Below are positions 3,743 through 46,570 of a stretch of 64,000 nucleotides of DNA, piece by piece. This stretch comes from Octopus vulgaris (lineage: Eukaryota): the NCBI GenBank assembly GCA_951406725.2, contig OX597820.1:103974001-104038000 (forward strand), in the 5' to 3' direction. Within the stretch, counting starts at the first letter, position 1; each line of letters begins with the position of its first letter. The notes beneath the pieces were generated by a model that saw only the letters and a list, made by a program, of their open reading frames with translations, was not told the DNA's origin and made no database searches. A program made the translations under genes and the position numbers.

Positions 3743-3782
3743 TATTTTGATAAGCATAACAAATGCGCAACCGGTAAAAAGA
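3743..3782 (+). ncRNA. Minimal hammerhead-like motif of the PLE (U3-A8 core; GAAA box reads GCAA)
   Basis: TTGATAA-GCAT/ATGC-GCAA-CCGG-TA. Stem III is palindromic, stem I is weak, and the A13C change probably inactivates it. Confidence 0.55.
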
Positions 3783-3981
3783 ACTTTCACCTAATTAAAT
3801 TACTTAAATTACTTCAATTATTTGTCAGCATTTTCTTCATTTCCTTTTTTATATATATATATATATATATATATATATATATATATATATAAGAGTGAAT
3901 ATATATATATATATATATATATATATATATATATATATATATATATATATATATATATATATATATATATATAACAGCGGA

Positions 3982-4036
3982 ATTTTGTCAGTGAACAGGT
4001 CGCGGTCTCAAAGCAACGAAAATATTTTGACAAATT
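3982..4036 (+). ncRNA. Type I hammerhead ribozyme with G3-C8 core
   Basis: Stem I TTTGTCA/TGACAAA, core GTGAACA, stem II GTCGC/GCAAC, GAAA, palindromic AATATT, UU cleavage site. The element's 3' tail (4070-4185) recurs inverted at about 39585-39690. Confidence 0.75.
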
Positions 4037-5479
4037 AAATTTAAATGTTGAAGTGAATCTAACGGTTTTTGTGTGTTTCTTAAATGGCTTATAAACACCT
4101 TCCACGCTGCAATTGTTTTCGTTTCAGCATACGATCTCAGATCAGGTCACTTTCTATGCAAGTACATCTCCGTAATATATATATATCAAAAGGGTATATT
4201 CCACAGCCATACCAACAATCCAACATGCCTCTATCATCAGCTGCCCCACGGATATCATTATGGTTCGACACCTGGGCAGTGCCATTCAATCCGGTGGGGT
4301 CAACAGCACTAAAATAAGTGTTGGTTGGGAACAAATAAACCAAAGAAACCACAACTTTAAAACACATTTACCCTATGTACAACCGGATCGATAAATAAAT
4401 TCAATAAGTAAATTACAACCACTCCTAAATATGTAACTAAACAGCGACAAATTTACTAAGTCACACACACACACACACACACACACACACACACATACAC
4501 ATATATAAGCAATAATAAATCTCTGAGCGCGGTATAAGCAGTAGCTGCACGACATCGTGAAGTATATTTGCCACTTAAATGTGGCTAACCCCGAAGGGTG
4601 GATGCTACTGTAGATTGTAGCCCCATGAGGACACCTCCTCCAGCTGGCCATTGACACACTTTCTGTGCCCTATCACTATTTGCAAAGGGAAGCCATCCTT
4701 CCCATCGTCGACCTGATGTGATACACACGGACCCAGGTTTCTGAGTTACTCCTTACTTCGATGGCTATAGACTTTTTCGCCATCCTTGCATGTTCTTAAC
4801 GTGCATACATCTATGCCTACATACACACACATACATCTTATTCTTATGACGGCCTGTCTATTATTCTGTATATATGACGCACACACAATCACACATGTTA
4901 ACATATCAATAAATCTTCTCTTAAACATTCTACCCGGTAATGTAACTTATTTCCCTCTGGCACATATATGCATTATTCTATTTATGTTTATTGTATCGAC
5001 CGTGTGATGTACTAAGGAGCCATTCTCATTACGTTGCTTCGCACGGACGTCACAAATCGGCGACCCTTTCCAGCTCCTTGAAACTACAAAACAATTATAA
5101 TGGGAGAAGGAGATACTCCACAGGCATCTAAACCTTTAATTTCATTATAAGCTTCTCCAACCTCATATCACTTGCATTAGTAGCTTACTGTTAGAAAGAC
5201 AAAAAAAAACTGTAATATTGTTTATTAATATAAGATTTCTGTCGGTAAAAGTAAGTTAAAAAGAAATAATTTATAATAGAAAACTAATTTTTGTTCGAAT
5301 CTAGCATTATCTTCCATCAAAGACCTTGTTATTTTATTCTTCAGTAACGTTAAACCTTGAGCCGTTATGTGCTTAGTGTCATAGAAAAATTTTACAAAAC
5401 GCTTTTCCATTTCTTACTGGTATCGAGGTTGTTTATAAAGCGAATATTTCCTCTTTATAAACATTGTCTATAAACAGGA

Positions 5480-5740
5480 AGTATCCCTAATTCGCTACTC
5501 CTGAAAATTTCTAAAGTTCACTCTTTGTGATTTTCCCTAGTTCTGGTTGTATTTGCTGTTTGTATATTTTGACACATTCATAAAAAGAATTTCAGGTCTT
5601 ACCAATGTAAATTCCTTTGTTGGGACATATTAAGCACTATATCAAATTTTCTGTCTTGCAGTTCATGTCTGTGTTTATTTTGAAAGACTGTGAGCCTTTG
5701 AATTTCATCTCAGATCTAAATAATTGCAGCTGTCTCTACT
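5480..5740 (-). pseudogene. Decayed PLE GIY-YIG fragment
   Basis: Minus strand reads NCKTENLI*CLICP...GIYIGKT, parallel to the intact PLE endonuclease region. Confidence 0.6.
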
Positions 5741-5782
5741 GTATGTTTCTTCCCTAATCACACGCCTGCTATACCTACAAGC

Positions 5783-6192
5783 AGAGCCGGACTAAGACCC
5801 ATTGAGGCCCTAAGTATTTAAAATATTTTGGTGCTACCATATATATGTAATTCAAAATCTAAACAATAATAAGCCATAATTTTTTTTTTCTTCAAAATGA
5901 TACAAAACTAAGAGTAAGATGGGAGAAAATGTTTATTTTATCTTTTTATGCTTCCATTTTATATTTCAAAAGTTACTTTTTTTTAATTGTAAAGTCTTCG
6001 ATCAAATCCTCACTATGACACCATGAACACTTTGAAATTATATATCCGATTATATACACTACCTCGAATATTATTTTAGTAAGTTTAAACTGATTTCTTT
6101 TGTGCCGTAAACAATTTACCATTTCTGTGGTATCCCCACTTCCTTTGATGCCCTAAGCACGTGCTTATTTTGATTAATGGTTAATCCAGCGT
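5783..6192. mobile_element. MITE-like element (hAT-like termini)
   Basis: Imperfect termini AGCCGGACTAAG...TTAATCCAGCG with GCCCTAAG subterminal repeats. Confidence 0.35.
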
Positions 6193-45200: not shown

Positions 45201-45383
45201 AAATGTACCCTTTTGCCAAGATATAACAAGTTAGTGAAATATTTAAAATGTTTACAGTTGGATAGATAGACAAATATAACAAAATAATTTTGACAAAAAA
45301 TGTGAATTTTTAATTATTTTCTGAGATTTTACAAAAACAACAAAAATATCATTAAAAAAAAATATTTTTTAATTTTTCAAGCT

Positions 45384-45695
45384 GGTAAATAAACACACGT
45401 ACTGTATATTCGTTCTTCACTCGTTTATTACTGTTCTTATTTTATCTTATGTCCCTTGTCTGGAAATCTTTCCTCACACATCTGTTACCTCCTCAGCGAT
45501 TCTTTCCACCCACGTGTATCCTCCTGCTTCGTTTAGTCCAATCGATGATGAAGGAGGATACACGTAGATAGAAATGTTCGCTGAAGAGGTCACAGATGTG
45601 CAACGAAAGACTTCCAGACAATGGACATAAGATAAAGTAAGAACAGAAATAAACGAATGAAGAACTAATATATAGTGCGTGTGTTTATTTGGCAA
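45384..45695. repeat. Diverged fold-back element with two hammerhead cores
   Basis: Plus strand CTGAAGA at 45581...GAAAGACTTC at 45605; minus arm CTGAGGA...GAAAGATTTC. The tail is related to the 14.7-14.85 kb family. Confidence 0.75.
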
Positions 45696-45878
45696 AAAAA
45701 CAAAAAAATTACCATCCTGAAATATAGCAGCATCAGTGATCATCTGCCACAAAATTATAAAAGAATGCAAACATAAAAGGTTTTTGAATAAACATTGAAA
45801 ATTTTATATGATAAAAATTCTGACATTATTTACATTATTTACATTTGATGGTTATTTGTCCTCATCTTGTTTCTTGTT

Positions 45879-45924
45879 AACACAAAGTTTCGGCTGTTAT
45901 ACCCTCCAGCCTCCATCAGGTGTC
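45879..45924 (-). ncRNA. Hammerhead copy of the 35.8 kb family (A9G)
   Basis: GACAC-CTGATGG-a-GGCTG/CAGCC-GAAA-CTTT-GTGTT. An inverted, decayed partner lies at 46195-46234. Confidence 0.75.
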
Positions 45925-46420
45925 TTGAGGAAATCTCGAACTTGGGTTCTCATTACTAAGGTATTTTTCGATGCTATTATTGTTGTTGTTGTTGTTATTA
46001 TTATTATTATTATTATTATTATTATTATTATTGTTATTATTATTATTATTATTATTATTATTATTATTATTATTATTATTATTATTAATTATTATTAATC
46101 AGTGACCTGAATGATAATAATAACAACAACAATAACAATAATAATAATAATAATAATAATAACATCGAAAAATACCTTAGGAATGGGAACCCAAGACACC
46201 TAATGAAGACTTTATCAGCCGAAACTTTGTATTAACAACAAACAAGATGAGGACAAATGTCCGCCAAATGTAAATAATATACATATTAAATATAGAACTG
46301 AAAAATTCTGACATCTTTCATTAGTTTAGATAGATAGATAGATAGATAGATAGATAGATAGATAGATAGATAGATAGATAGATAGATAGATAGATAGATA
46401 GATAGATAGATAGATAGATA

Positions 46421-46570
46421 GATCAAAACAGTTTGATTCATATTCGTTGGTACTCTTGAGTTTCATGTGTGATGCTAGTCGTCAGTCATTTCAAATTCAA
46501 AATGGCTGATGACTAGCATCAGGCTTGAAATTCAAGAGTACCAACGAATTTGAATCAAACTATTCTGATC
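46421..46570. repeat. Fold-back element with two hammerheads beside (AGAT)n
   Basis: Plus: TGG-CTGATGA(46506)-cTAGC..GCTT-GAAA-TTCaaGAG-TA-CCA. Minus: CTGACGA...GAAACTCaaGAGTA. Confidence 0.8.

What the first reader, a model, noticed from the sequence alone, without database searches (positions are those of the whole stretch)
3743..46570. Dense, diverse hammerhead ribozymes with natural covariation of the 3-8 pair
Seen: about 15 full or near-full type I hammerhead motifs from several unrelated short elements. Cores are CUGANGA (30869, 31218, 35797, 45581, 46506), UUGANAA (3747, 10457, 42232) and GUGAACA (3991). Positions 3 and 8 change together as C-G, U-A and G-C, and stem III is usually a tiny palindrome (AACGTT, AATATT, CATATG, CTCGAG, ACCGGT). 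Established: C3-G8 pair in the active fold, compensatory swaps rescue cleavage, and PLE pLTRs carry minimal hammerheads thought to act as dimers. Inference: this is a large set of PLE-mobilised, retrozyme-like mini-elements under selection for cleavage. Searches for CUGANGA would miss many of them.
Basis: partly seen in the sequence, partly recalled or inferred. Interest (0 to 1): 0.82.

Follow-up and report, generated by a model that had tools for sequence, protein, structure and literature searches.

The report
Penelope-type hammerheads, one swapped-core family
This stretch of animal DNA is littered with mostly decayed copies of a known kind of small, predicted self-cutting RNA motif left by Penelope-like jumping genes, and one very abundant short repeat carries a version with two paired core letters swapped (G3-C8) that I did not find reported from nature, though cutting is untested.

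Summary
The motifs are real but mostly ordinary. A descriptor blind to 3-8 pairing gives 9 hits, 8 Watson-Crick at 3-8 (shuffles: 1.4 hits, 0.24 paired). I curated 20 motifs at 14 sites: 12 C-G, 4 U-A, 3 G-C, 1 U·G. Only 6 look intact, and 6 of the 14 sites are inverted pairs.

They are the minimal type I hammerheads of Penelope-like elements (PLEs). The extra base after A9, palindromic stem III, U3-A8, solo copies and opposite-strand pairs are all in PMC4209133. Two sit behind PLE coding DNA here. No head-to-tail units were seen, so 'retrozyme' is unsupported; most copies are decaying.

The new part is a ~210-bp non-coding element (3975-4178; relatives at 54234-54341) with a G3-C8 hammerhead at its 5' end. 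Public contigs show it at very high copy under three organism labels, with restored stem II, TA-rich flanks and PLE-style inverted junctions. I found G3-C8 in print only as an engineered, partly active mutant, but could not read two key papers. This scan noted G3-C8 earlier in phages and protist PLEs. Cleavage is untested.

The parts
671..3025 (+). Penelope-like element frame, 784 codons stop to stop: RT, C-x4-C-x2-C linker, C-terminal GIY-YIG (Neptune/Nematis-type layout); no ATG near its 5' end
   Evidence: (RVT_1 E 3e-07, GIY-YIG E 3e-06)
3740..3783 (+). U3-A8 minimal hammerhead (N3 at 3747) about 720 bp behind the PLE stop codon; G12-C13-A14 instead of GAA; stem III palindrome ACCGGU; weak stem I
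3975..4178 (+). Short non-coding element between (TA)n runs that carries the G3-C8 hammerhead at its 5' end; very high copy in public contigs
3984..4034 (+). G3-C8 minimal hammerhead: G3 3991, C8 3996, extra G 3998, stem II 3999-4003/4013-4017 (4 of 5 pairs here, 5 of 5 in the family majority), GAA 4018, palindrome AAUAUU, predicted cut after U 4027, 7-bp stem I
10301..10593 (.). Inverted duplication holding two U3-A8 hammerheads (10437 minus, 10457 plus), both with intact cores
12789..14856 (.). Inverted duplication of a PLE 3' end: GIY-YIG remnants (13460-13864 minus, 13773-14177 plus) followed by C3-G8 hammerheads with A9C in both arms (12949 minus, 14696 plus)
30865..30967 (+). C3-G8 hammerhead (30869) with a 76-nt branched stem II, 8-nt palindrome, A17, weak stem I (borderline)
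31137..31224 (-). C3-G8 hammerhead (31218) with a 57-nt stem II, 8-nt near-palindrome, A17, 6-bp stem I
31403..31445 (-). Decayed hammerhead (31439): U3·G8, G9, palindrome ACUCGAGU
34974..35015 (-). C3-G8 hammerhead (35010) with G5A; stems intact
35792..35837 (+). Textbook C3-G8 minimal PLE hammerhead (35797); same family as 45919 and 46200
   Evidence: E 1.4e-06
42197..42236 (-). U3-A8 box (42232) with GAA and stem I but no paired stem II: decayed copy or chance match
   Evidence: E 0.12
45387..45690 (.). Inverted duplication with two degraded C3-G8 motifs (45496 minus, 45581 plus); same family as the PLE end at 14696
45823..46285 (.). Head-to-head pair of the 35797 family around a (TAT)n/(AAT)n run: 45919 minus (A9G) and 46200 plus (G5A, stem II partly deleted)
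46431..46561 (.). Inverted duplication with two C3-G8 motifs (46485 minus, 46506 plus), poor stem II
54233..54343 (.). Head-to-head pair of diverged G3-C8 hammerheads: 54271 minus (intact, fold z -2.96) and 54304 plus (degraded, G17); about 79% alike to 3981-4032
39581..39690 (-). Copy of the 3' part (4066-4175) of the G3-C8 element, 91% alike, without the hammerhead

Best explanation
These are minimal type I hammerhead motifs of the kind found at the ends of Penelope-like retrotransposons, likely left here as truncated and inverted insertion debris of about ten families, and the G3-C8 motif likely marks a short non-autonomous element copied by PLE enzymes. Shown: the motifs, their pairing, two links to PLE coding DNA, the inverted pairs, the decay of most copies, and the abundance and fixed ends of the G3-C8 element. 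Inferred mechanism: a PLE RT-endonuclease nicks a microsatellite, starts reverse transcription at fixed internal sites of the RNA and copies toward its 5' end. Early stops and strand switches leave short hammerhead-bearing tails and head-to-head pairs that then decay. The G3-C8 element would be transcribed from about 20 nt upstream of G3 and copied while still uncut, since copies keep both halves of the ribozyme. Its ribozyme would be slow and would need a second copy (stem III is only a 4-6 nt A/U palindrome) or the PLE protein. The 3-8 pair stays Watson-Crick because source elements need a correctly folded, at least occasionally cleaving core; C-G was replaced by U-A or G-C in separate lineages.
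For: Enrichment over shuffles with 3-8 unscored. Extra base after A9 and palindromic stem III match the PLE consensus in PMC4209133. The same descriptor finds a hammerhead in 14 of 18 outside PLE loci; 12 distinct motifs, 11 C-G, 1 U-A, 0 G-C, with stems covarying (score 0.65 against 0.19 shuffled; these 12 were picked by the descriptor, so pairing is partly built in). Motifs 3747 and 14696/12949 lie 0.5-0.7 kb behind PLE coding DNA on the same strand; 45581 is homologous to 14696. Inverted 5'-truncated copies and microsatellite targeting are PLE hallmarks (passages of PMC8557442 and its preprint). G3-C8 element in four contig sets: summed depth 2-5 million over 3988-4163 in X15 against 35-59 for single listed contigs; no other letter listed at G3, C8 or GAAA; 4015 reads G in 92-96%, restoring stem II; the other two listed changes in the ribozyme are in loop II (4009) or give a U·G wobble (4030); 11 of 15 shown joints are opposite-strand, 8 of them from a fixed point at 3977-3985 to variable points; upstream loose ends are TA-rich and heterogeneous; TA-rich loose ends behind 4118 (one run) and 4176-4186. 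A PLE hammerhead needs PLE protein, is partly rescued by C3G/G8C, and uncut RNA is the main insertion substrate (PMC11167929 passages).
Against: No cleavage data. No coding PLE is linked to the G3-C8 element, so its PLE partner is inferred from architecture and insertion pattern. Summed contig depth is not a copy number (tool's warning). Four rows of the variant table and 75 joints were hidden. G3 and C8 lie 14-19 nt from where alignments begin, and no variant at all is listed before 4009, so sensitivity there may be low. Conservation among copies can reflect recent amplification alone: 2 polymorphic sites in 56 nt of ribozyme against 10 in 140 nt outside is not a significant difference. The three G3-C8 copies show no two-sided stem change. 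The independent model does not score the variant motifs significantly. Depth over the 5' half of the ribozyme is only 0.2-0.5 of that just downstream, which leaves room for copies made from cut RNA.
Confidence: 0.65

Rival explanations
1. The hammerhead fold of these elements, the G3-C8 one above all, is kept as a structure (for example a landing site for the PLE protein) or simply hitch-hikes on amplified source copies, and does not cleave to any useful degree.
For: Ribozyme mutants did not impair insertion in vitro and no reads ended at the cut site for a lizard PLE (PMC11167929); very low in vitro activity of minimal hammerheads (PMC4209133); Naiads amplify without hammerheads; A/U palindromes give almost no duplex energy (-0.2 kcal/mol for 3991, +2.2 for 54271); 3747 behind an open PLE frame has C13.
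Against: The 3-8 pair belongs to the active fold (PMC3088659, PMC8495972) and stays paired in three letter combinations; U4, G5, A6, A9, GAA and A15.1-U16.1 are kept in the G3-C8 copies 3991 and 54271.
Confidence: 0.2
2. The short elements are true non-LTR retrozymes: tandem units cut to monomers, circularised and re-inserted.
For: Solo 'monomer' copies of retrozyme families exist and retrozymes derive from PLE ends (bioRxiv 10.64898/2026.07.22.740005); unit size of about 210 bp is in their range; (TA)n spacers could break tandem units in contigs; 75 joints were not shown.
Against: No hammerhead in any of the 103 tandem-repeat rows; no go-back joint among the 15 shown; flanks upstream of the element are heterogeneous; retrozymes mostly have canonical hammerheads with loop 1-2 contacts (PMC7229834), these are minimal; several motifs are PLE 3' ends.
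Confidence: 0.12
3. The non-C-G motifs are chance look-alikes in AT-rich, hairpin-rich repeats.
For: The bare pattern is not enriched; Rfam gives nothing; the outside model misses 3991 and 3747; single folds are mostly not significant (z -1.1 for 3991); 42232 may well be chance.
Against: Five of the six non-C-G descriptor hits are Watson-Crick at 3-8 against about 18% in shuffles; the family majority repairs stem II; a copy only 79% alike keeps every core base and both stems.
Confidence: 0.03

Closest known systems
Minimal hammerheads (min-HHR) of metazoan Penelope-like elements (Cervera and de la Pena 2014, PMC4209133)
   Same: Type I topology, extra base between 9 and 10.1, G10.1-C11.1, palindromic 15.1-16.1 segment, solo copies from truncated PLEs, opposite-strand pairs, many divergent families per genome, U3-A8 families (about 1,300 hits in Schistosoma mansoni).
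   Different: No G3-C8 core among the 56 representatives of their Figure S3 as extracted; their printed descriptor demands CUGANGA. The G3-C8 motif here sits at the 5' end of a short element with defined ends rather than at the 3' end of a variably truncated PLE. Two motifs have 57-76 nt stem II arms.
Natural core variants of hammerheads (Perreault et al. 2011, PMC3088659)
   Same: Natural covariation of the 3-8 pair.
   Different: The passages read report U3-A8, not G3-C8.
Hammerhead of the Anolis Poseidon element PAc (PMC11167929)
   Same: PLE hammerhead; C3G/G8C double mutant partly active; uncut RNA is inserted; two RT start sites give two 3' ends.
   Different: There G3-C8 is engineered and the element is autonomous; here it is natural and in a non-coding repeat.
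Non-LTR retrozymes of animals (PMC7229834; bioRxiv 10.64898/2026.07.22.740005)
   Same: Small non-coding mobile units with a type I hammerhead, probably moved by PLEs.
   Different: Defined by head-to-tail tandems, mostly canonical hammerheads and circular RNA; tandems were not seen here and circles could not be tested.

Membership tests
PLE minimal hammerhead (min-HHR) | Core N3-UGA-N-N8-A9 with 3-8 paired, GAA, A15.1-U16.1, H17 | tested here: met
   6 of 20 curated motifs fully, the rest with 1-2 lesions or poor stems; enrichment over shuffles
PLE minimal hammerhead (min-HHR) | Extra base between A9 and 10.1; tiny palindromic stem III | tested here: met
   Extra purine in 13 of 20 as registered; palindromes of 4-10 nt; descriptor without the extra base finds 0
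PLE minimal hammerhead (min-HHR) | Position in the pLTR behind a PLE RT-EN frame | tested here: inconclusive
   Met for 3747 and 14696/12949, and for 45581/45496 by homology; no coding link in the window for the others, including the G3-C8 element
PLE minimal hammerhead (min-HHR) | Self-cleavage as dimer or with PLE protein | not testable with these tools
   Needs bench assays
EN+ Penelope-like element (Neptune/Nematis layout), frame 671-3025 | RT with DKG motif, C-x2-5-C-x2-C linker, C-terminal GIY-YIG with CCHH | tested here: met
   (invariant D161-K162-G163, C653/C658/C661, C697/C700/H719/H736); no tree was built, so the clade is not placed
Non-autonomous PLE-mobilised element (G3-C8 element) | Microsatellite targets, inverted 5'-truncated neighbours, alternative 3' ends, no coding frame | tested here: met
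   joints, loose ends; no frame or PLE protein match at 3975-4178
Non-autonomous PLE-mobilised element (G3-C8 element) | Sequence shared with an autonomous PLE partner | not testable with these tools
   No whole genome is held; no match to the PLE ends in the window
Non-LTR retrozyme | Head-to-tail tandem units each with a hammerhead | tested here: not met
   (window); no go-back joint among 15 of 90 shown; not excluded genome-wide
Non-LTR retrozyme | Unit-length linear and circular RNA | not testable with these tools
   Only contigs were available
Rfam Hammerhead_1 (canonical type I) | Score at or above the gathering threshold | tested here: not met
   0 matches to any family

The most novel reading that the evidence does not exclude
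A SINE-like family of about 210 bp, amplified to tens of thousands of copies or more in several related animal genomes by Penelope machinery, begins with a natural G3-C8 hammerhead. The swap makes a working but slowed ribozyme that lets most transcripts be reverse-transcribed uncut, so the family is a natural experiment on what PLE hammerheads are for, and it is invisible to every CUGANGA or UUGANAA search.
Probability: 0.3. Interest if true: 0.62.

Novelty: new variant of a known kind. Interest (0 to 1): 0.38.

Why it matters
Most of the finding repeats what is known about PLE hammerheads. The G3-C8 family matters for two reasons. It would complete the natural evidence for the 3-8 pair with the one swap that, in the papers I could read, is known only as an engineered and partly active mutant, and it would do so in a high-copy animal repeat. 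It also offers a short, abundant substrate for an open question: whether PLE hammerheads must cut for the element to move. In practice, ribozyme censuses of such genomes need a descriptor that allows any Watson-Crick pair at 3-8.

Tried and rejected
Whole-genome search: no genome is held. Rfam: nothing at gathering threshold; at E<=10 the best 150 of 337 rows were shown, nearly all microRNA models on microsatellites and inverted repeats, no hammerhead among them. Canonical descriptor: 0 hits. A G3-C8 family pattern gave 1 match in metagenome contigs (L001; no stem I or III, judged chance) and 0 in viral contigs. No PLE relatives in viral contigs. Sequencing runs: no RNA holder listed; X1 is only guessed to be RNA, so nothing is said on expression. 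Table 6 (places where many molecules begin or end) was empty, and contigs cannot show RNA ends. Co-folding of identical pairs gave dimer gains of 2-12 kcal/mol, but I did not check which pairs they came from, so they are not used. CpG decay inside against outside the ribozyme (0 of 4 against 2 of about 4 sites listed) is too few to show selection. Rejected or left as probable chance: 22916, 30644, 56950, 45109, 52556 and 19026. A palindrome-only count (29 against 16.6 in shuffles) is inflated by microsatellites and was not used. A MITE or tRNA-SINE reading of the G3-C8 element: by eye no terminal inverted repeat or B box; not tested with a tool. Two papers most likely to hold G3-C8 variants (Lunse et al., RNA Biol 14:1499; Arkhipova et al. 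2017 on Terminons) are not held.
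Full report
Setting. The window is 36% G+C, dense in microsatellites and short repeats. No whole genome is held. I take it for an octopus-like cephalopod from recalled repeat content only; no call names the organism. The named relatives of its PLE protein come from bivalve symbiont bins, probably host DNA, which fits a mollusc. 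It holds an open 784-codon RT plus GIY-YIG frame at 671-3025 and endonuclease remnants at 5430-5714, 13460-14177 (inverted duplicate) and 55185-55628.

Noticed in passing
window 3767-3769: The hammerhead behind the open PLE frame has G12-C13-A14 together with U3-A8; unknown whether this is a lesion of this copy or the family letter.
   Followed up: no
window 297-740 and 671-3025 (+): The PLE frame lacks a start codon near its 5' end and overlaps an upstream 147-codon frame; microsatellites interrupt 201-381. Possibly a frameshifted or damaged N-terminus.
   Followed up: partly
window 3502-3706: A 112-bp unit repeated 1.8 times in the PLE 3' region, just upstream of the hammerhead.
   Followed up: no
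window 30865-30967, 31137-31224, 31403-31445, 46431-46561: A second architecture: no extra base, a U·U mismatch closing stem II, 8-10 nt palindromes, mostly A17, and stem II arms up to 76 nt.
   Followed up: partly
window 29470-29492 (-), 30490-30510 (-), 35930-35965 (+): 3' halves of hammerheads whose 5' box is missing; 29489 sits at the centre of an inverted duplication (29226-29768).
   Followed up: partly
window 55185-55628 (-) and 55809-55920 (+): A PLE endonuclease remnant lies head-to-head with a tail of the 10457 (U3-A8) family; may link that family to a coding PLE.
   Followed up: partly
window 11690-12690: By eye a decayed Tc1/mariner-type transposase with terminal inverted repeats; not tested.
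   Followed up: no
window 7763-8313, 21734-22103, 59719-60515: Tandem 184-236 bp units of an abundant SINE-like repeat; no hammerhead hit in them.
   Followed up: no
window 35084-35359: Three near-identical 92-bp units (98% matches).
   Followed up: no
window 4203-4430: Another repeat family right behind the G3-C8 element, at 20- to 100-fold lower summed depth.
   Followed up: no
L002-L019: Complete eukaryotic Penelope-like elements with pLTR hammerheads, one a tandem array (L010-L012), lie inside bacterial MAG records of the genome collection, probably host contamination; L006 carries a U3-A8 hammerhead.
   Followed up: partly
window 22880-22925 (-): Hammerhead-like skeleton with C3·C8 and U9, the one unpaired 3-8 hit of the descriptor; decayed copy or chance.
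   Followed up: no
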